Positions 39,940-50,761 of a stretch of DNA of 64,000 bases are shown piece by piece. Origin of the DNA: an uncultured Hyphomicrobiales bacterium. Lineage in GTDB: Bacteria; Bacteroidota; Ignavibacteria; Kapaibacteriales; UBA2268. Below the pieces are notes generated by a model, which saw nothing but the letters and a program-made list of their open reading frames with translations, ran no database searches and had not been told where the DNA came from. Both the position numbers and the translations under genes were made by a program. The stretch is taken from positions 66,691-130,690 of the forward strand of contig CAYXMM010000002.1 in NCBI GenBank assembly GCA_964465945.1, written 5' to 3'. Within the stretch, counting starts at the first letter, position 1, and each line of letters opens with the position of its first letter.

Positions 39940-40142
39940 GGCATGTCGCTACTACGGAGTTTTTTTATTTCACTAAAGCCGATGTGATTTGGGTTTTGAT
40001 GAATGGGCTGAAGCCCTATCCTATTGATTTATCCAAATTTTATTGTTGCTTTCCACCTACCCCTACTCAACGATTTTGATTTATTTAAATTAGAAAAACT
40101 ACGTAGTAGTTTAATATCAATAGTATTAGAAATATAAATGAG
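39940..40142. repeat. REP-like imperfect repeats flanking the 3' side of the RAYT gene
   Basis: Contains CTACTACGGAG, GGGCTGAAGCCCTATCCTATTGATTT, TTCCACCTACCCCT...ATTTTGATTT and AAAAACTACGTAGTAGTTTAATATCAATAG. Each has a partner on the other flank or elsewhere in the window. Confidence 0.55.
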
Positions 40143-40619
40143 TTACTGCTCCGTAGGAGTAGCACTTTCTTCTAAAATATATTTATCATCATATTCTATT
40201 TTATATGCCTCTAGTAGACTTTTATACTCTTTTTTAAAACTTACTTTTTTATGATGTTCTTTTTGATTTTCAATATAGTTAATTGTTTTCTTTAACTGAC
40301 TTTGGCTTACTGAAAATGCTGAATATCCTGTCTGCCAATAAAATCTTCCTTTAACAAATTTATTGTCTGATATCCATTTTGATGTTGATGATTTAATATC
40401 TCTTATTAAATCTGATATTAAACAATCAGGATATATACTTAATAAAATATGTATATGGTCAGTATATCCATTAATTACAAATAATTTTTGATTTTTCTGT
40501 TTTATAACTCCCGTTATATATTTGTATAACTGGTCTTCCCAATGTTCTAATATTAAGTTCTCTCGTCCTTTAACTGCAAAAACAATATGCAGATATATTT
40601 GTGTGTATGTATTTGGCAT
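40143..40619 (-). mobile_element. IS200-like / REP-associated tyrosine transposase (Y1 HuH transposase)
   Basis: 158-aa ORF with the HuH motif (DHIHILLS) and the catalytic-Tyr motif INYIENQ. Its ends are embedded in 17-bp inverted repeats: TGCTCCGTAGGAGTAGC at 40136..40152 and its reverse complement at 40651..40667. Confidence 0.8.
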
Positions 40620-40950
40620 AATATTATTGTATCTGATTTTTATATTCTACTCCTACGGAGCAGGTTGTATTGTTGTATCGTTTGCTATTGATATTAAACT
40701 GCTACGCAGCTTTAAAATATTTTTGCCTTTGTGTTCCACCTGCCCATTAATCCCGTCGGGATAATATGTTTATAGTATTATTTTAGTTAGTATGGATACG
40801 ACTCCGACGGAGTCTCACCTTGTTTTTAGTTTTTTTTTGCTATAAACGTTTGAATCCGAGGGATTCGGGTTTGGCTAAAGCCATTATTTATTTGGTGTTA
40901 TGTGATAGGGCTGAAGCCCATTCCTATTGATTTTATTGATATTTTAAATT
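40620..40950. repeat. REP-like imperfect repeats flanking the 5' side of the RAYT gene
   Basis: CTCCTACGGAGCAG, CTGCTACGCAGC, TTCCACCTGCCCAT, CGACTCCGACGGAGTC, GGGCTGAAGCCCATTCCTATTGATTT. Several partner with motifs in 39940..40142. Confidence 0.55.
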
Positions 40951-40952
40951 AT

Positions 40953-41711
40953 TTAATTATTATCATAACTAGCTGTGTCTATACCAGAATGCTTGTAAAT
41001 AACTTGATTTGAATTTTGATTTTGATTTGTTTTATTTATTTCTGTTTCAAATTTCTGTAAATCTTCTTGTTCTATATCATCTTTTAAAATATAATTCTTG
41101 AATATATTCCATAATACTCTTAATATAAAACTAAAGATATAATAAGTAAAGTATAATAAAACCATTAGCAATAAAAAATCATCATATTCTAACTTTACAA
41201 ATAAAAATATTACTACAATAAGACCAAGTAATAAAATTGTAAATTTAATTGGGACTTCTAGTTTGTCTTCATAAATCTTTTCAATTCTTTTTATTTGATT
41301 TTTAATTGTTATTCTGAAATCATTGTTATTACTTTCAACCTTCCTAATGATATCTTCGTTTTTATTAGTTTTTGAATAAGATATTTCATAATTAAAAATT
41401 CTAAATAATTTTCCTGAAGAATTTAATTTTAATTTGTTTCTAAAAATAACATCTAAAAATAAAATGACTGCCCAAATCACATCTACTATATTCCAAAGTT
41501 CCCTTCCAAATGATATTTTAAAAAAAGGGTTAATTAGTATAGCTGATCCAATCCAAAGTATTAATAAGGGTTTCTGTTCTTTATCTAAGTAAGCAAAATA
41601 GATAAACCCAATCATTCCTGCTAATCTAACAAACATATAATATCCATAAGGCATATTTATTAAACAAATCAGGAATATAACAGCTAATATTATTTTTACT
41701 ATTCTCATCAT
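40953..41711 (-). CDS. hypothetical polytopic membrane protein (third gene of the cassette downstream of the MmeI-like gene)
   Basis: Three N-terminal TM helices, a charged middle segment, two more TM helices and an N/Q-rich tail. No recognisable motif. Confidence 0.5.
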   Translation of the reverse strand: MMRIVKIILAVIFLICLINMPYGYYMFVRLAGMIGFIYFAYLDKEQKPLLILWIGSAILINPFFKISFGRELWNIVDVIWAVILFLDVIFRNKLKLNSSGKLFRIFNYEISYSKTNKNEDIIRKVESNNNDFRITIKNQIKRIEKIYEDKLEVPIKFTILLLGLIVVIFLFVKLEYDDFLLLMVLLYFTYYIFSFILRVLWNIFKNYILKDDIEQEDLQKFETEINKTNQNQNSNQVIYKHSGIDTASYDNN

Positions 41712-41725
41712 AATTAAAAATTATT

Positions 41726-42493
41726 TTATTTATTTTTCACTTTTTGATGTTCTGAAATAAAGTCATGAATATATGTGTTGTTAAGATGAAGATCATTTCT
41801 CATCATGTCAATAAGACTGTCAAAATTTTCAGATATCGTAACAAGTTTTTTTTCTATTTCGGCAGGCATATCTTGAACTTCTTTTGAAAATTCCATTTTC
41901 TGAATTTCGTGGATTTCAAATAGAGATTTCATGAGTTTCTGAAATTCATCCCTAATTGAATTAGGAAATAAGCTGCTGTTGTCCAAGGAATTTTTCTTTA
42001 TTCTATTTAACAGTGAGGATCCAAAGTTCAAGTAGACAGAACGATAGTATTCATATGAGTCTTCGATAATAGCATTTCCTTCATGGTAAATTTGTTCAAC
42101 ATTAAACAGATCTGACTTAGACTTTATTAAGTCTTTGAGTGAGCTTGTTTTGTCCTTAAAGATTTCATTTTGTACTGATTGAAGAGAAGAAATTACTATC
42201 GGTTGAAATGAAGACTTGATTTGATTAATCTCAACTTGGTTTTTGTCAGTTTCAGTCTCAACTCTTTTTAATTCCGCTCTTTCTTTTTTTCTAGTTAGAA
42301 GACGTGTAATCCAAAATGTAAGAAGTGTAACAAGTAGCGGAAATACTAACGATATTAATATGGGATTTGTTAGAAAACTATAGTCATCTTTTTTAGATTG
42401 AATAGCCTCTATTGTTATCTTTCCTTCTTTATTGTTATAGGAAATAACTTCGTCTAAATTGACTTTATATATTGTCGTATCTTTTTGGTTCAT
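41726..42493 (-). CDS. hypothetical single-pass membrane protein with long helical/coiled-coil C-terminal region
   Basis: One TM segment (PILISLVFPLLVTLLTFWITRLL), then a K/E-rich helical region. Sits 14 bp upstream of the next gene. Confidence 0.5.
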   Translation of the reverse strand: MNQKDTTIYKVNLDEVISYNNKEGKITIEAIQSKKDDYSFLTNPILISLVFPLLVTLLTFWITRLLTRKKERAELKRVETETDKNQVEINQIKSSFQPIVISSLQSVQNEIFKDKTSSLKDLIKSKSDLFNVEQIYHEGNAIIEDSYEYYRSVYLNFGSSLLNRIKKNSLDNSSLFPNSIRDEFQKLMKSLFEIHEIQKMEFSKEVQDMPAEIEKKLVTISENFDSLIDMMRNDLHLNNTYIHDFISEHQKVKNK

Positions 42494-42561
42494 TTTTAAT
42501 TAGGCCTCAATTTGTTGTTAAAATAATATTTTTTACTTACAAAATAAATACAATTCCCCAC

Positions 42562-43215
42562 CTACTCCTCCTCACAAATTTTGATTTCTGCTCTTTGTAA
42601 ATAACTATCTAAATTGTTTTGTCTATCAAATATTAAAGCAATTGTGTATTGCAATTTTGTTATAGTTAAAACATTGAATTTAGGTAATGGTATTAGGCAA
42701 CGAAAACCATCAACATATACTAAAATAAATGATTCTATTGTATTATTATTATATGATAAATGATAATGAAAACTGCTTGCTTTTGGATCAGGAAATTTAT
42801 TAGCCCACGTCTCTACAAAATTATCATTTAATTCATCATTAATGTTATGCGAATATAACTTTAATTTTGGATCATTTTTATAAATAGATTTGTCGAATTC
42901 ATTATCTTCACTTGTTTCCCAATCAAAAATAGAATTAGTCATAGCTACAAATTCAAGAATTTCATTTTTACTCATATCACTTAATTTCTTCGGTGGTGGA
43001 TCAAAGTGATTTGCTATTGCTTTAGAGCTAAATAAGGCACCAGATAGAAAATATAATAATACGCTAATTGGTTCAAAAATTCCTAAGTCGTTAAATATTA
43101 TCCATAAAATTGTAATTATAATTGCTACAACTGCCTTTATAAAAGCAGTTACAAATATTTTTGAAATATTATTTCTTAAAAACTTAGCAAATTTAATAAC
43201 TTTCGTTTCCATCAC
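42562..43215 (-). CDS. hypothetical membrane-anchored protein, translationally coupled to the MmeI-like gene
   Basis: Two N-terminal TM helices plus a ~150-aa soluble domain. The start ATG overlaps the stop of the R-M gene (ATGA at 43212..43215). Confidence 0.5.
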   Translation of the reverse strand: MMETKVIKFAKFLRNNISKIFVTAFIKAVVAIIITILWIIFNDLGIFEPISVLLYFLSGALFSSKAIANHFDPPPKKLSDMSKNEILEFVAMTNSIFDWETSEDNEFDKSIYKNDPKLKLYSHNINDELNDNFVETWANKFPDPKASSFHYHLSYNNNTIESFILVYVDGFRCLIPLPKFNVLTITKLQYTIALIFDRQNNLDSYLQRAEIKICEEE

Positions 43216-45947
43216 CCCCTCCTCTTCTTTTTACCGGTTGTGAATAAATCGGCGGTGTATTTTTCGTATAGTTGGAATAGGTATTCTAATCGCTCGGCTT
43301 CGGTGGTGAAAGGGGCGGAGCGATAGGATTTGTCAACTGCTTTGTCTAATTCGTTGTGGGCTTTTACTAAGTCTGGGGGCATTGTTAATGGGTCGTATAA
43401 TACTGCCAATGAGGACTCTGGGTATTTTGCTCTGATGTCTAATACTTGTTGGGCTTTTTCTTCGATTGCTTGTATTTGTTTTTCTGTAGGGTTTTCTGGC
43501 CAAGGATAGTTATTATAAACTATATCTTTTGAATATCTATAATCACTTTTCAATCTTCCACAGACTGTTTTTACCCAATTCATGTGCATAATTGAAGATA
43601 ATACACCAAAATGGAAATGAGTCGCATTTGGAAGTGAGAACATAGTATCACTAACAATCACGTCTTTTTTAAAAAATCCAATAGGAATATATTTCCTATT
43701 TTCAGAAGTTGTTCTTGGGATTATTAGATAATCATTCTCTGGTTGAGTTATTTGTCTAAATAATGTATGAGAAGTATAATCCCTGGTAGACTTAGCTTTA
43801 CTTTCACTTCTGAATTTTCTAACTAATTCAATTCTTTTTAAAATAAAGGGCATTTTTTTTAATTCATCAGGTTTAATGTCTTTCAACCATATGCACCATC
43901 TTTTTTTGTTATTTAAAAATTCTCTTGCACTTATAAATGGTTTTATTACATTTGAAGATAATGGATCATTTATAACAAAATCTTTTTTTTCTTCATCATC
44001 TAACAAGTAATGGCCACCATCAGTTGGTTTATTTCCATATTTCATTGATGGAACATTACATACTGGAAATGTTCTATTTTGGATTAATATATTAGGAGCA
44101 TCAATCAAATAAGGGTTTATATTTTTAACTTTAATTACGTATCCATCACCTTTAATGTCTGGGTAATCATAGATTTTTTTATTTTTAATATCATAATTTG
44201 CAAAACCAATTATTACACAATAGACAGCGGCTTTATCTTTAGCTTCATTAGACCATTTGAAAGTACGATGAGCGAAGTGAATATATATATTATATTTTTC
44301 TAATAAAGTATACCATAAAATTCCTACTTGTTCACCTTGGACTAATGAATTTGTTGATACTAAAGCTACTTTTATATTAGTGCCTTGAATGTATTTTAAT
44401 GATAAATAAAACCAAGCAGAAACAAAATCAAGTACCCCATTTGCTTTTATATCATTTAGAACATTTGTCATATCTAATTTTTGTTCTTTTGTTTGTAAAT
44501 GATGTCCAATAAATGGTGGATTACCAATAATATAAGATAGTTCGTTTTTGTTGATTACATCGTTCCAATCAAGTTTTAAGGCGTTTGCATTATGGATATT
44601 AGCGGATTTGACAAGTGGGATACGAGTTAAGTATTGTCCGAACTCATTACTGACTTTTATATTCATTTGGTGGTCGATAAGCCACATAGCAACTTCGGCG
44701 ATACGAGCAGGGAATTCTTCGAGTTCGATACCATACATCATATCTACATTGAGTTTAATCATTTCGCTAATTTCGAGAATTTGCTGACCATCGTCGTATA
44801 GTTTTTTTAGGATTTCGATTTCAAGTAGGCGTAGTTCTCTATAAGTGATAATTAGGAAATTGCCACAACCACAAGCTGGGTCAAGGAATTTGAGTTTGCT
44901 TAGTTTATCGTGGAATTGAGTAAGTTTATTTTTGTTATGTTTTACATTATTAAATTCTTCCCATAATTCATCAAGGAAAAGTGGCTTAATAAGTTTTAAG
45001 ATGTTTTTTTCTGAAGTGTAATGAGCACCGAGATTTCTTCTTTCTGTTGGGTCCATAACAGATTGGAACATAGAGCCGAAAATCGCAGGTGAGATTTTAC
45101 TCCAATCGAGATAGCAACATTCGAGAAGGGTTTGTCGCATCTTTGAATCAAAACTTGCAATAGGAAGAACTTCTTCGAATAACTTTCCATTTATATAAGG
45201 AAAAGCGTTGAGTTGTTCGTCGATGTTTTTAAATCTTTTTTCTCTTGGGGTATTAAGAACTTGGAAGAGTTCTTGTAAGCGAGAGGCAAGGTCAGAGCCA
45301 TCTGGTTGGGTTCTTTCTTCTATGAAAAATTGGAAAGATTGCCTATCGAAAATACCAGTATCTTCTGCGAATAAACAGAATAAAATTCTAACAAGATAAA
45401 CTTCGAGTTCGTGGCCAGAATAGCCAATTTCTTCTAATCTATCATGAAATTTACCGAGTAATTCAGCTGCTTTGATATTAACAGGGTCTTGTTCTTTGAA
45501 TACTTTTTGTTCGTAGCCAGCGATGAAATCAAAGTAATGTAGATTATCGAGGAGTTCAGAAATTAAAAATATGTGTTTGGTGTTTTCTTCCAAATGATAA
45601 AGATGGAATTGATTAAAGTCTGAAACTAAAATATATCTTGGGAGTTCATATTGCGGAATATTATATAAATAATCTTTTGCTTGTTGGAATGCTTTTTCAA
45701 GGTCTTTGCCTCTGCTTTTCATTTCAACAATAATAGTTGCCTTCCAGAAAAGGTCGATATATCCGTCGTTTTCGTTAAGTTTTTTTACTTTATGTTCGAA
45801 GGTGGCGATTCTTTTTCTTTCAACACCAAAGATTTTGAAGAAGTCTTCAAGAAATGGTTTTGCTTCGGCATCTTCGCTTGTTTCGTCTTTCCATTTGTCA
45901 ATAAAAGCGACTGCTCTTTGTTTTATTTCGTTTTTGCTAAGGGGCAT
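43212..45947 (-). CDS. MmeI-family Type IIL restriction-modification enzyme (fused PD-ExK endonuclease + gamma-class N6-adenine methyltransferase + TRD)
   Basis: N-terminus MPLSKNEIKQRAVAFIDKW...AKPFLEDFFKIFGV...DLFWKATIIVEMKSRGKDL parallels the MmeI N-terminal nuclease domain (D...E-x-K), as recalled from memory. SAM motif I FLDPACGCGNFL, motif IV IIGNPPFIG and the conserved YRELRLLEIE / HYTSEKNILKLIKPLFLDEL blocks are present. 911 aa. Confidence 0.8.
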   Translation of the reverse strand: MPLSKNEIKQRAVAFIDKWKDETSEDAEAKPFLEDFFKIFGVERKRIATFEHKVKKLNENDGYIDLFWKATIIVEMKSRGKDLEKAFQQAKDYLYNIPQYELPRYILVSDFNQFHLYHLEENTKHIFLISELLDNLHYFDFIAGYEQKVFKEQDPVNIKAAELLGKFHDRLEEIGYSGHELEVYLVRILFCLFAEDTGIFDRQSFQFFIEERTQPDGSDLASRLQELFQVLNTPREKRFKNIDEQLNAFPYINGKLFEEVLPIASFDSKMRQTLLECCYLDWSKISPAIFGSMFQSVMDPTERRNLGAHYTSEKNILKLIKPLFLDELWEEFNNVKHNKNKLTQFHDKLSKLKFLDPACGCGNFLIITYRELRLLEIEILKKLYDDGQQILEISEMIKLNVDMMYGIELEEFPARIAEVAMWLIDHQMNIKVSNEFGQYLTRIPLVKSANIHNANALKLDWNDVINKNELSYIIGNPPFIGHHLQTKEQKLDMTNVLNDIKANGVLDFVSAWFYLSLKYIQGTNIKVALVSTNSLVQGEQVGILWYTLLEKYNIYIHFAHRTFKWSNEAKDKAAVYCVIIGFANYDIKNKKIYDYPDIKGDGYVIKVKNINPYLIDAPNILIQNRTFPVCNVPSMKYGNKPTDGGHYLLDDEEKKDFVINDPLSSNVIKPFISAREFLNNKKRWCIWLKDIKPDELKKMPFILKRIELVRKFRSESKAKSTRDYTSHTLFRQITQPENDYLIIPRTTSENRKYIPIGFFKKDVIVSDTMFSLPNATHFHFGVLSSIMHMNWVKTVCGRLKSDYRYSKDIVYNNYPWPENPTEKQIQAIEEKAQQVLDIRAKYPESSLAVLYDPLTMPPDLVKAHNELDKAVDKSYRSAPFTTEAERLEYLFQLYEKYTADLFTTGKKKRRG

Positions 45948-46989: not shown

Positions 46990-47986
46990 CTTTTTTATTT
47001 TCGTTTCTGTGTAAATGGACTGGGCATTTTCTTACTCCGTGTAGGATACAATCTCTTGGGCATGGTGTTGCATAAACTCTTGAAATTGCAGTAGGATAAA
47101 CGCTTTTTATTTGTCCTTGAATTTTTTTTTCCATAACTAACTTTTCTTCCATTGAGTAATCATAAGGAAGCATTATGTCAAGTTCAACGAAATAGTCTTT
47201 GCCTGATTGTCTTGTATGAACGGATTTGAATTCGCACATTTCGTGGACGTTTTCGGCGACTACTGCTATTATATCAAATTGAATATCATCGGGTAGAGTT
47301 TTGTCGAGTAATTGGTTAAGAGCGTCTTTTGAACCTTTAAGCGGGATTCTAAGGGCAAGAGCTGTTAGCATAAACGCAGTTAATGAATCTATTTGCTTTG
47401 CTATGTAATCTAAACCGAAGAAAATTAAAATAGTACCGAGTAATAAGTTGCATAGCACACCTAATTCGATGTAACTATCTGTTTTCCAAATCTCTGCGTC
47501 AAATTTAAGGATTGGTATTCTGAATCTTTTTGCGCTTGATTTTTGGTATTTATACATTCCATACATTAAGAAAAATGAAAAGAGCGAATAGAAAGATAGG
47601 AATGAATAGTTACCACTTTCGTAATCACCTTTAATATATACAATTATAACTTCCCAAAGTGCATATCCAAGTACTGCTAAGAGTAGAATTGCACTGATTA
47701 ATAATGTTAAACTTTCATACTTTCCGTAGCCGTAGTTGAAGACGTAGTCAGGAGTTCTAACTGAATGATTAACTGCAATCATCAGTAGAACTGAATTAAC
47801 AACGTCAATTAGTGCTATAAATCCGTTAATTTGAACTGCTAATGACGATTCTTGCGAACCGAGAATTATACCTGAAATTGCTAAAATTAATCCAACAAGT
47901 AATGAAAGTCTTGTTGAGAGTAAGGGAGAGCTTGGGTCTAATATGTTTTTAATTTTTGTTGATATGTTAGATTTATAATTGTGCAT
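46982..47986 (-). CDS. cation diffusion facilitator (CDF) family transporter
   Basis: Six-TM N-terminal domain plus a cytoplasmic C-terminal domain. Overlaps the ruvB start by 8 bp. Confidence 0.65.
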
Positions 47987-48814: not shown

Positions 48815-50761
48815 ATGTTAATTTTTCTATTAATTTTATTTACAAATATAAGTAATTCACAAGAATATTATAGGGTGTTTTATAAAGATAAGGATACGAT
48901 ATCATTTCAAAATAATAATTTTTCATATAAAGAAACTTTAAAGTTGTATGATGTAAATGCTTTGAAAAGACGAGGGAATTTATATATAGAAGATGCTATA
49001 ATTACTCCAAGTTATATTGAGAAGCTTAAAGAATTTGATATTGAGTATATTAACTCGTCACGTTGGTTTAATTATTCTTTAATTAAGGCGGATACAAGTG
49101 TTATAAAGGAAATTGAGAAGTTAAGTTTTGTTAAGAAAGTCAATAGGACAAACACTAAATTTAGTACTCTTGATGTTAAGTCAAGTGAGCTAACTAATTA
49201 TACTGAAATGATTTTGGACAAGAATAGTTATGGGGAATCGGAGGATCAGGTTTCTCAGTTGGGCGTAGATAAATTGCATAAATTAGGTTTTAATGGTGAT
49301 TCTGTCATTGTTGGTTATTTGGATTCGGGGTTTAGGTTGTTTGGTGATGTGGTAGATTCAACTCATTTGTTAGGACAATATGATTTTGTAAATAATGATA
49401 CTGAGACATCAAATCAAGAAGGTGATGCAGTGAATCAGGATTTGCATGGAACTTGTGTGTTATCAACTGTTTCTGCATACAATCAAGATAGTTTAATTGG
49501 TATGGCGAGCGAATCATTCTTTTATTTAGCAAAAACAGAGAATGTGTCGGGTGAGAAAAATGTAGAGGAAGATAATTTTGTTTTTGGGTTGGAATGGCTT
49601 GAAACGAGGGGAGTTCAACTTATAAATTCTTCATTGGGATACAGAATTTTTGATGATGGCGAGCTATCGCATTCTTTTTCTGAATTAGATGGAAGCACAA
49701 CGTTGGTAAGTCAAGCAGTTAATAAGGCAGTGAAGAAATATATTATGTTTTTTAATGCAATTGGAAACGATGGACCAGGTGAGAAAACATTAATTTCGCC
49801 ATCAGATGCAAATTCTGTGATTGCTATTGGTGGGTTAAGAAAGGGAAGTGATGAAATTGCGAATTTTAGTTCGATTGGACCAAATGCAAGTAGTGATATT
49901 CGACCTCATTTTGTAGCACAAGCGGCTGATGTTTCGATTGCTTCAAATAATCCAAACAAAAAGTTTATAAAAGGTAATGGGACAAGTTTTGCATCTCCAT
50001 TAATGATGGGTGCAACAACTCTTATAAAATCTGCCTATCCGGAAGCAACAAATTATAATATATTTAATTCTATGAAAGTAGCTGCTAATGTCCCTAATGG
50101 CGATGAACCATCAAATACTTTTGGATATGGAATAGTTAATTTTAAGAATTTAATGGATACTCTATCATATAATTATGGGCCAGCAATTGCTCCATATAAT
50201 ACTTTTGAAATAGGTGGAAAATTGAGAATTGTTATATATGTTCTTTCAGTATATGATTGTGATGTGAATATTAAATATATTGAAAATGGCGAAGAAGTAA
50301 TAAAAACTATGGAAAAAGGTGGTGAAGAATATCAATATTATTTTGATTTAGAAAAGAATTTATTTATCGATAATAATGCGTTAGTTAATTTTTCTGTTAC
50401 TGATTCAAAAAAGAGAGTTAAGAAATACTCGAACAATTATTTTGAAATTAAGTGGGGAAAGGAGATAATTCGTAAGGGTGTGGATAAGTTTGGAATGCCT
50501 ACCTTAGTATCTGATAATAAAGAAGATATAATACCTATTTTGTATTCTGACAGATTAGAGATTATAAATAATTCGGAAAAAAATGAACTTTTTGAAATAA
50601 ATATTTTGGATATTAATGGAAAGTTCTTATTTTTGAATTCTATTCTAATTCAACAACAGAAAAATGTTCTTTATTTAGAAAATCAACTTAATTTAGGTTT
50701 ATATTTTGTAGTTTTGAAAAATTCTACTGGAATAAAAACGTATAAATTAATTTTAAATTAA
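48815..50761 (+). CDS. S8 (subtilisin-like) serine peptidase with T9SS C-terminal sorting domain
   Basis: D/H/S catalytic triad blocks (GYLDSG, HGTCV, GTSFASPLMMG); C-terminal ...LYFVVLKNSTGIKTYKLILN. Confidence 0.8.
   Translation: MLIFLLILFTNISNSQEYYRVFYKDKDTISFQNNNFSYKETLKLYDVNALKRRGNLYIEDAIITPSYIEKLKEFDIEYINSSRWFNYSLIKADTSVIKEIEKLSFVKKVNRTNTKFSTLDVKSSELTNYTEMILDKNSYGESEDQVSQLGVDKLHKLGFNGDSVIVGYLDSGFRLFGDVVDSTHLLGQYDFVNNDTETSNQEGDAVNQDLHGTCVLSTVSAYNQDSLIGMASESFFYLAKTENVSGEKNVEEDNFVFGLEWLETRGVQLINSSLGYRIFDDGELSHSFSELDGSTTLVSQAVNKAVKKYIMFFNAIGNDGPGEKTLISPSDANSVIAIGGLRKGSDEIANFSSIGPNASSDIRPHFVAQAADVSIASNNPNKKFIKGNGTSFASPLMMGATTLIKSAYPEATNYNIFNSMKVAANVPNGDEPSNTFGYGIVNFKNLMDTLSYNYGPAIAPYNTFEIGGKLRIVIYVLSVYDCDVNIKYIENGEEVIKTMEKGGEEYQYYFDLEKNLFIDNNALVNFSVTDSKKRVKKYSNNYFEIKWGKEIIRKGVDKFGMPTLVSDNKEDIIPILYSDRLEIINNSEKNELFEINILDINGKFLFLNSILIQQQKNVLYLENQLNLGLYFVVLKNSTGIKTYKLILN

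What the first reader, a model, noticed from the sequence alone, without database searches (positions are those of the whole stretch)
43212..45947. MmeI-like enzyme: specificity may be predictable from its TRD
For MmeI-family enzymes, recognition-sequence positions map to a few identifiable TRD residues, and specificities have been rationally altered. This homologue has a complete C-terminal TRD, from roughly ...DAPNILIQNRTFPVCNVPSMKYGNKPTDGGHYLL... onward. Its recognition site could therefore be predicted and may be new. The conserved nuclease (D, VEMK) and MTase (NPPF) residues are intact, so the enzyme is probably active.
Basis: partly seen in the sequence, partly recalled or inferred. Interest (0 to 1): 0.55.

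Follow-up and report, generated by a model that had tools for sequence, protein, structure and literature searches.

The report
MmeI-type restriction enzyme, predicted site ACGRAG
This gene encodes an intact single-chain restriction-and-methylation enzyme of the well-known MmeI family; its DNA target can be read from published contact residues as ACGRAG (or only ACGGAG), a site already on record for another bacterium, so it is an ordinary new member of a known family.

Summary
The ORF at 43212-45947 (minus strand, 911 aa) is real. It is a full-length MmeI-family (Type IIL/IIG) restriction-modification enzyme with all five MmeI Pfam domains and 55.7% identity to MmeI (PDB 5HR4) in a nearly gapless alignment. 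The nuclease residues (D65, E75, K77), SAM motif I and NPPF are intact.

I mapped the published MmeI base-contact residues onto the protein:
- Position 1: A718/R731/Q732, the RdeGBII triplet, gives A.
- Position 2: Y637/K640, as in MmeI, gives C.
- Position 3: R745/D767, the pair used to engineer G, gives G.
- Position 4: T768/R804 gives a purine.
- Position 5: the methylated A.
- Position 6: K800/D802 gives G.

The predicted site is ACGRAG or its subset ACGGAG. The 2009 MmeI paper documents the Thr/Arg pair as ambiguous (R in SdeAI, G in DrdIV and MaqI), so position 4 cannot be decided from sequence.

ACGRAG is already a recorded m6A motif (MspI7II, Maribacter sp. Hel_I_7). Thirty of the 120 nearest database proteins share the same residue code. 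The specificity is therefore probably not new.

Side finding: sister strains carry the same gene at the same ruvB-adjacent locus. Residues 1-480 are identical, but the specificity cassette (residues 481-799) has been replaced.

The parts
43212..45947 (-). Complete MmeI-family Type IIL restriction-modification gene (911 aa)
   Evidence: ORF. Five MmeI Pfam domains. 55.7% identity to MmeI 5HR4 over 899 aligned residues. PADLOC REase_MTase_IIG, 1226 bits.
45429..45917 (-). N-terminal PD-(D/E)XK nuclease domain (residues 11-173). Catalytic D65 is at 45753-45755 and E75-x-K77 (within VEMK) at 45717-45725.
   Evidence: Pfam MmeI_N, E=5.5e-40. D65/E75/K77 align to MmeI D70/E80/K82. DEK is conserved in nearly all homologues examined.
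45177..45413 (-). Helical spacer domain (residues 179-257)
   Evidence: Pfam MmeI_hel, E=1.3e-25.
44166..44951 (-). Gamma-class N6-adenine methyltransferase domain (residues 333-594). SAM motif I DPACGCGNF is at 44856-44882 and catalytic NPPF at 44511-44522.
   Evidence: Pfam MmeI_Mtase, E=4.4e-91. Motif coordinates.
43494..44102 (-). Target recognition domain (residues 616-818) carrying the specificity residues: Y637, K640 (position 2); A718, R731, Q732 (position 1); R745, D767 (position 3); T768, R804 (position 4); T746, L799 (position 5); K800, D802 (position 6).
   Evidence: Pfam MmeI_TRD, E=4.7e-74. Residue mapping onto MmeI contacts. Rules taken.
43242..43484 (-). MmeI C-terminal domain (residues 822-902)
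   Evidence: Pfam MmeI_C, E=2.8e-34.
43551..44507 (-). Naturally exchanged specificity cassette (residues 481-799). It comprises the MTase loop just after NPPF-IG, the rest of the MTase domain and most of the TRD.
   Evidence: Sister-strain alleles P0003 and P0004 are 97-100% identical in every 40-residue window over residues 1-480 (P0004 100%; P0003 differs at two codons), 38-80% over 481-799 (38-60% in the loop after NPPF and in the TRD, 72-80% in the MTase segment 521-600) and 90-100% over 800-911. Nucleotide identity to L083 falls from 97-100% to 65-72% over window 44547-43557.
42562..43215 (-). Downstream 217-aa ORF overlapping the stop codon by 4 nt. It is a predicted membrane protein of unknown role. 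Its link to the enzyme is uncertain.
   Evidence: No Pfam or NCBIfam match. Weak PADLOC PDC-S50 hit, E=3e-9. An ORF sits at this position in L086 (near-identical) and in L083 (very divergent). tblastn found it in none of the other 80-odd MmeI loci I held.

Best explanation
The gene encodes a functional, solitary MmeI-family (Type IIL) restriction-modification enzyme. One polypeptide binds an asymmetric 6-bp site through its C-terminal TRD. It flips out and N6-methylates the penultimate adenine of one strand, which protects the host. Its N-terminal PD-(D/E)XK nuclease cuts unmodified foreign DNA about two helical turns downstream (about 20/18 nt). From the published contact-residue code, the site is 5'-ACGRAG-3' (R = A or G), or the subset 5'-ACGGAG-3'. 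Shown here: the domain architecture, the intact catalytic motifs, the identity of each contact residue, purifying selection on the catalytic half, and replacement of the specificity cassette between strains. Inferred: the site itself, single-strand methylation, the cut distance and activity in vivo.
For: Family: five MmeI Pfam domains in the canonical order, and E=0 with 55.7% identity to the MmeI crystal-structure sequence with only three single-residue or short gaps.

Catalysis: D65/E75/K77, motif I and NPPF are intact.

Specificity, position by position:
- Position 2: Y637/K640 are identical to MmeI Y642/K645, which hydrogen-bond the C:G pair.
- Position 3: R745/D767 is the same pair as the engineered E751R/N773D change that converts C to G.
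- Position 6: K800/D802 is the KxD pattern. It is invariant in G-readers and was proven by swaps in both directions.
- Position 5: T746/L799 are conserved.
- Position 1: A718/R731/Q732 is exactly the Ala/Arg/Gln triplet listed for RdeGBII as the 'A' code. CstMI (AAGGAG), which I extracted from pTP10, has Ala/Gly/Gln, and its other residues obey the rules.
- Position 4: R804 reads a purine. With Thr at 774 the paper gives R for SdeAI and G for DrdIV and MaqI. SdeAI (CAGRAG) also has G at position 3, as predicted for this protein.

Independent support: ACGRAG methylated on the penultimate A is a real Type IIG motif in a member of the Flavobacteriaceae (MspI7II, 99.4% of sites).

Selection: codons 1-480 differ from sister alleles by 13 synonymous and 0 non-synonymous changes, and by 16 and 2. 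The exact protein occurs on 3 independent contigs.

No separate M or S gene is needed for this family, and none is present nearby.
Against: There are no biochemical or methylome data for this gene. The position-1 rule has never been validated by engineering; all MmeI position-1 variants, including Ala/Arg/Gln, were inactive. The Thr/Arg pair at position 4 is explicitly ambiguous. The minor-groove MTase-loop contacts differ from MmeI (K487/S488/K489 become H482/H483/L484), with unknown effect. I could not retrieve the MspI7II sequence, so it is not shown that MspI7II carries the same residues. It is also typed 'IIG*' (atypical) in the source table. Some natural family members are silently inactivated (NmeAIII, DraRI, ApyPI). 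The predicted site is not depleted in the window (30 observed against 18.6 +/- 4.9 expected), so genome statistics give no support for activity.
Confidence: 0.78

Rival explanations
1. Same enzyme and mechanism, but position 4 is read strictly as G, so the site is ACGGAG only. This hexamer may not yet be assigned to any characterised enzyme.
For: The Thr774/Arg810 pair reads only G in two of the three characterised enzymes that carry it (DrdIV, MaqI). Thr is bulkier than the Ala of MmeI, and bulk at 774 excludes A:T, as in A774L. One 2025 methylome paper lists ACGGAG as 'not in REBASE'.
Against: The only Thr/Arg enzyme that also has G at position 3, as this protein is predicted to have, is SdeAI, and it reads R. 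ACGRAG, not ACGGAG, is the motif observed in nature (MspI7II). The S. meliloti ACGGAG signal is methylated at only 8.7% of sites and is probably noise.
Confidence: 0.3
2. The enzyme recognises something other than A at position 1, or a longer or otherwise different site, because residues outside the mapped set modulate recognition.
For: Position 1 is recognised mostly through van der Waals contacts and resisted every rational change. The authors conclude that non-contact residues matter. The loop between 723 and 738 is one residue shorter than in MmeI. The MTase minor-groove loop differs (HHL against KSK) and covaries with the TRD.
Against: The triplet is identical to that of a characterised 'A' enzyme (RdeGBII). 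Ala723 plus Gln738 recurs in all the listed A-readers (RlaII, ApyPI, CstMI). There are no TRD insertions of the kind that accompany 7-bp sites.
Confidence: 0.1
3. The gene is intact but is not an active restriction enzyme in its host. It could be methylase-only, poorly expressed or otherwise silenced.
For: Several natural family members are inactive in their hosts. There is no recognisable dedicated promoter; the gene starts 22 nt after ruvB. There is no site avoidance.
Against: There are no frameshifts or stops, and all catalytic residues are present. Substitutions in the nuclease/MTase half are almost purely synonymous. Repeated replacement of the specificity cassette in an otherwise clonal gene is what diversifying selection on a working R-M system would produce.
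Confidence: 0.12

Closest known systems
MmeI (Methylophilus methylotrophus; TCCRAC 20/18; PDB 5HR4)
   Same: Same five-domain architecture and length (911 against 919 aa). 55.7% identity. Identical catalytic residues. Identical contacts at position 2 (Tyr/Lys) and position 5 (Thr/Leu), and the same Arg at position 4.
   Different: The contact residues differ at position 1 (Ala/Arg/Gln against Ala/Phe/Tyr), position 3 (Arg/Asp against Glu/Asn), residue 774 (Thr against Ala) and position 6 (Lys/Asp against Glu/Arg). The MTase minor-groove loop is HHL instead of KSK. The predicted site is ACGRAG rather than TCCRAC.
MspI7II (Maribacter sp. Hel_I_7; ACGRAG, m6A on the penultimate A)
   Same: Its experimentally observed motif equals the site predicted here. 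It is Type IIG, and its host belongs to the Flavobacteriaceae, the family of most of the closest same-code homologues.
   Different: Its sequence was not retrievable with these tools, so shared contact residues are unverified. It is listed with a controller (C) protein and typed as atypical IIG. No C gene is evident next to this gene. It was not among the 120 best hits of either full-length search.
RdeGBII, SdeAI and CstMI (characterised MmeI-family enzymes)
   Same: RdeGBII has the same Ala/Arg/Gln position-1 triplet. SdeAI (CAGRAG) has the same Thr/Arg pair at position 4, with G at positions 3 and 6. CstMI (AAGGAG) shares Ala..Gln at position 1, a basic residue plus Asp at position 3 (Lys/Asp in CstMI, Arg/Asp here) and Lys/Asp at position 6.
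   Different: Each differs at other positions. SdeAI reads CA at positions 1-2. CstMI has Phe/Met at position 2 (A) and Leu774 (G only).
TRD exchange ('domain movement' or allelic TRD replacement) in Type I and Type IIG systems of Helicobacter pylori (Furuta et al. 2011, 2014)
   Same: A clonal R-M gene keeps its catalytic part while the recognition module is replaced between strains.
   Different: Here it is seen in an MmeI-family gene of an uncultured FCB-group bacterium. The junctions are sharp, immediately after NPPF-IG and just before the K-x-D-x-R strand. No silent cassettes lie nearby.

Membership tests
MmeI family (Type IIL / IIG single-chain R-M-S enzymes) | N-terminal PD-(D/E)XK nuclease motif aligned with MmeI D70-X9-E80-X-K82 | tested here: met
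   D65, E75 and K77 align to D70/E80/K82. Pfam MmeI_N, E=5.5e-40.
MmeI family (Type IIL / IIG single-chain R-M-S enzymes) | Similarity along the whole length of MmeI, with the domain order nuclease, helical spacer, gamma-class m6A MTase (motif I, NPPF), TRD, C-terminal domain | tested here: met
   All five Pfam MmeI domains are above cut-off and in order. The alignment covers 1-901 of 911 residues at 55.7% identity. Motif I and NPPF were located.
MmeI family (Type IIL / IIG single-chain R-M-S enzymes) | Solitary gene with no separate methyltransferase or specificity subunit | tested here: met
   The neighbours are ruvB upstream and, downstream, three small ORFs with no known function (one matches DUF6804) and an IS200-like gene. 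There is no MTase or S gene within about 5 kb.
MmeI family (Type IIL / IIG single-chain R-M-S enzymes) | Methylates only the penultimate adenine of one strand and cleaves about 20/18 nt downstream; SAM-dependent | not testable with these tools
   This needs a methylome or a cleavage assay. It is inferred from family behaviour.
Isospecific with MspI7II (ACGRAG) | Same base-contact residues as MspI7II | not tested
   The MspI7II sequence could not be obtained. It was absent from the best 80 genome loci and from both full-length protein searches. Only the motif is known.
Isospecific with MspI7II (ACGRAG) | Contact-residue code predicts A-C-G-R-A-G | tested here: inconclusive
   Five positions are predicted as A, C, G, A and G. 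Position 4 (Thr/Arg) is compatible with R but also with G only.

The most novel reading that the evidence does not exclude
This ruvB-adjacent gene is a natural hot-swap locus. At least three sister-strain alleles share an essentially identical nuclease/MTase front (residues 1-480) and a near-identical C-terminal domain, but they carry unrelated specificity cassettes (residues 481-799). The junctions lie immediately after NPPF-IG and just before the K-x-D-x-R strand. If these junctions define a portable module, which includes the MTase minor-groove loop that covaries with the position-2 residues, whole-cassette grafting could re-target MmeI-family enzymes at positions 1-3. That would include position 1, which resisted all rational point engineering. 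Separately, if Thr768 excludes A:T, the enzyme would cut ACGGAG, a hexamer apparently not yet assigned to any enzyme.
Probability: 0.3. Interest if true: 0.45.

Novelty: new member of a known kind. Interest (0 to 1): 0.22.

Why it matters
In practice, this is one more MmeI-family enzyme whose site can be read almost completely from sequence. That confirms the published code transfers to distant, uncultured FCB-group bacteria. It also marks where the code fails: the Thr/Arg pair at position 4 and the unvalidated position-1 rule. The predicted site is probably not new, so the value as a reagent is low. The more useful by-product is a set of natural alleles with identical catalytic halves and different TRD cassettes. 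They give exact recombination junctions that enzyme engineers could copy, and they show population-level diversification of restriction specificity at one chromosomal locus.

Tried and rejected
1. The supplement of Morgan & Luyten 2009 (family alignment) is not held as text, so Figures 1, 3 and 4 could not be read directly. I relied on the main text and on Callahan's S1 Table.
2. A TRD-only protein search returned only short fragments, with no named full-length proteins.
3. A profile of the same-code clade returned the same set of about 30 clusters and no Maribacter protein.
Neither the host genome nor Maribacter Hel_I_7, SdeAI or CdpI was among them.
5. Literature searches for ACGRAG or CTYCGT as a motif in main texts gave only primers. 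MspI7II is not discussed in any held paper.
6. A cross-check of my code-reading against other organisms in the Blow et al. tables found no overlap with genes I hold.
7. The idea that the downstream 217-aa ORF is a conserved partner of MmeI-like genes is rejected. tblastn found it in none of the other loci.
8. A local shufflon with silent TRD cassettes is rejected for this window.
9. Site avoidance as evidence of activity is not seen; the site is slightly enriched.
10. In one search the 'last 111 codons' comparison for L083 and L088 was mis-registered, because gene lengths differ, and should be ignored. The protein alignment is the valid measure.
Full report
OBSERVATION. The N-terminus (MPLSKNEIKQRA...) aligns from residue 1 with MmeI (MALSWNEIRRKA...), so the start codon is correct. 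The quoted TRD peptide is residues 616-649. VEMK is at 74-77 and NPPF at 476-479.

WHAT IT IS. Pfam finds all five MmeI-specific domains in the canonical order, each far above cut-off:
- MmeI_N, residues 11-173
- MmeI_hel, 179-257
- MmeI_Mtase, 333-594
- MmeI_TRD, 616-818
- MmeI_C, 822-902

The only solved structure matched is MmeI itself (5HR4), with E=0 and 1133 bits. Query residues 1-901 align to MmeI 1-906 at 55.7% identity, with only a few 1-5 residue gaps. PADLOC calls it a Type IIG REase-MTase at 1226 bits. The nuclease triad D65/E75/K77 (MmeI D70/E80/K82), SAM motif I (DPACGCGNF) and the catalytic NPPF are intact. There is no separate MTase or specificity gene nearby. The gene starts 22 nt after ruvB and is followed by three small ORFs with no known function (one matches DUF6804) and an IS200-like Y1 transposase gene. 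That fits a solitary MmeI-type system, which protects the host by methylating one strand.

READING THE SPECIFICITY. The rules come from Morgan & Luyten 2009 (PMC2731914) and the MmeI-DNA structure paper of Callahan et al. 2016 (PMC4833311). I mapped the contacts using the nearly gapless alignment.
- Position 2: MmeI Y642/K645 correspond to Y637/K640, unchanged. These residues hydrogen-bond the C:G pair, so C.
- Position 3: E751/N773 correspond to R745/D767. This is the very pair (E751R/N773D) that converts MmeI from C to G, and it is the natural pattern of G-readers, so G.
- Position 5: T752/L805 correspond to T746/L799, conserved. This is the methylated A.
- Position 6: E806/R808 correspond to K800/D802. 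KxD is invariant in G-readers and was proven by reciprocal swaps in MmeI and NmeAIII, so G.
- Position 1: A723/F737/Y738 correspond to A718/R731/Q732. Callahan's S1 Table lists exactly Ala/Arg/Gln as the triplet of RdeGBII, used as the code for A. The main text says A-readers have Ala723 plus Gln738.
- Position 4: A774/R810 correspond to T768/R804. Arg810 reads a purine N7, and the residue at 774 decides between R and G.

As a control I extracted CstMI (AAGGAG) from plasmid pTP10. It maps as Ala/Gly/Gln, Phe/Met, Lys/Asp, Leu/Arg and Lys/Asp, fully consistent with the rules. The predicted site is therefore 5'-A-C-G-(R or G)-A-G-3'.

THE LIMIT OF PREDICTABILITY. The 2009 paper states that the same pair, threonine and arginine, specifies A or G in SdeAI but only G in DrdIV and MaqI. 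Position 4 therefore cannot be decided from the two residues. SdeAI (CAGRAG) is the only one of the three that also has G at position 3, as predicted for this protein, so I favour R. In addition, the position-1 rule is only a correlation. Every MmeI variant carrying a foreign position-1 triplet, including Ala/Arg/Gln, was inactive. The MTase-loop residues that touch base pairs 2 and 4 in the minor groove differ from MmeI (KSK becomes HHL).

IS THE SITE NEW? Probably not. The supplementary tables of Blow et al. 2016 (PMC4752239) list MspI7II of Maribacter sp. Hel_I_7 (gene P178DRAFT_2545; Type IIG; m6A) with the motif acgrAg. It is methylated at 99.4% of sites and is recorded as an unambiguous match in REBASE. 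That is exactly the predicted motif, with the methylated base where the MmeI family places it.

I could not obtain the MspI7II sequence. The table types it 'IIG*' (atypical) and lists a C protein with it. The identity of contact residues therefore remains untested. From memory only (REBASE), I recall that MspI7II cuts about 20 nt downstream and that RdeGBII recognises ACCCAG. Neither was checked here.

Independently of MspI7II, the full residue code ARQ|YK|RD|TR|TL|KD is shared by 30 of the 120 nearest database proteins. These are 66-70% identical, and the named ones are Flavobacterium. Three of the 80 genome loci also share it. The specificity is thus common in this clade. If the enzyme turns out to read only ACGGAG, that hexamer may be unassigned. 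A 2025 paper lists it as absent from REBASE, though on weak data.

ACTIVITY. There is no direct evidence. Several lines give indirect support:
- The ORF and all catalytic motifs are intact.
- The exact protein is present on three independent assemblies.
- Substitutions relative to sister alleles in codons 1-480 are nearly all synonymous: 13 synonymous to 0 non-synonymous, 16 to 2, and 116 to 25.

The predicted site is not avoided in the window: 30 sites against 18.6 +/- 4.9 expected. This neither supports nor contradicts activity.

SIDE FINDING: CASSETTE REPLACEMENT. Contigs from other samples carry the same chromosomal locus (ComEC, S8 protease, SDR, CDF transporter, RuvB, MmeI-like gene), with flanks 99-100% identical at the nucleotide level.
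- Their MmeI-like proteins (P0003, P0004) are identical or nearly so to this one over residues 1-480 (P0004 100%; P0003 differs at two codons).
- Immediately after NPPF-IG, identity drops to 38-80% and stays low up to residue 799. It is lowest (38-60%) in the loop just after NPPF and in the TRD.
- Identity returns to 90-100% in the C-terminal domain.
- Their codes differ. RGE|FM|RD|TR|VL|KD predicts a CAGRAG-like site. DRD|FI|IV|TR|TL|KD cannot be read at positions 2-3.
- The closest overall relative, P0002 (89% identical, in a different genomic context), differs in code only at the position-6 pair (ER, giving ACGRAC-like).
- No silent TRD copies exist in the window, so this looks like homologous replacement from other genomes rather than a shufflon.
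- The exchanged segment includes the MTase loop after NPPF. Across 245 family members this loop covaries with the position-2 TRD pair: Phe/Met goes with G-S-K-x-M, and Tyr/Lys with G-H-H-x-Q.

Allelic TRD replacement is well documented for Type I and Type IIG systems in Helicobacter. This is therefore a new instance of a known process, not a new one.

HOST. The host genome is not a representative in the genome collection; the best hits were 70% identical. The low G+C (about 30%), a T9SS sorting tail on the neighbouring protease and the taxa of the nearest homologues (Flavobacteriaceae, Ignavibacteria, Kapaibacteria) point to the FCB group. This is an inference.

VERDICT. This is an ordinary new member of a well-characterised family, with a modestly interesting natural example of specificity-cassette exchange.

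Noticed in passing
window 43551-44507 (residues 481-799 of the MmeI-like protein); loci L083, L086 and L088: Sister-strain alleles at the same ruvB-adjacent locus are identical over residues 1-480 and near-identical over 800-911. They carry unrelated specificity cassettes in between, with sharp junctions right after NPPF-IG and just before K800-x-D802.
   Followed up: yes
window 44493-44507 (residues 481-485, G-H-H-L-Q, the loop after NPPF): The MTase loop that contacts base pairs 2 and 4 in the minor groove in MmeI covaries with the TRD position-2 pair across 245 homologues. Phe/Met goes with IGSK[IML]M, and Tyr/Lys with xGHH[ML]Q. MmeI itself has VGKSKQ.
   Followed up: partly
window 42562-43215 (minus strand): A 217-aa ORF overlaps the stop codon of the MmeI-like gene by 4 nt. 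It has a hydrophobic N-terminus, no Pfam or NCBIfam match, and a weak hit to the PADLOC defence candidate PDC-S50 (E=3e-9). It is near-identical in L086 but highly divergent, and split into two called genes, in L083. It is absent next to MmeI-like genes in the unrelated genomes.
   Followed up: partly
window 40000-40935: An IS200/IS605-type Y1 transposase gene (40143-40619) is bracketed by inverted repeats (40095-40123 with 40685-40713; 40146-40162 with 40647-40663, a perfect 17-mer) and by GGGCTGAAGCCC hairpins at 40001-40020 and 40904-40923. The arrangement resembles a REP/RAYT element.
   Followed up: no
window 40714-42557: The segment carrying the 255-aa ORF and the DUF6804 gene is absent from sister contig L086. 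There the MmeI-like gene and the small ORF abut the Y1 transposase region directly. This is an indel polymorphism at a repeat-rich junction.
   Followed up: partly
window 50148-50547 and 47348-47947: Against otherwise 99-100% identical flanks, two short patches diverge from sister strain L083 (85-88% and 90-94%). They lie in the S8 protease gene, which has a T9SS tail, and in the cation-efflux gene, and suggest further recombination tracts.
   Followed up: no
whole window: The predicted recognition site ACGRAG occurs 30 times, against 18.6 +/- 4.9 expected from dinucleotide-preserving shuffles. It is mildly enriched, not avoided.
   Followed up: yes
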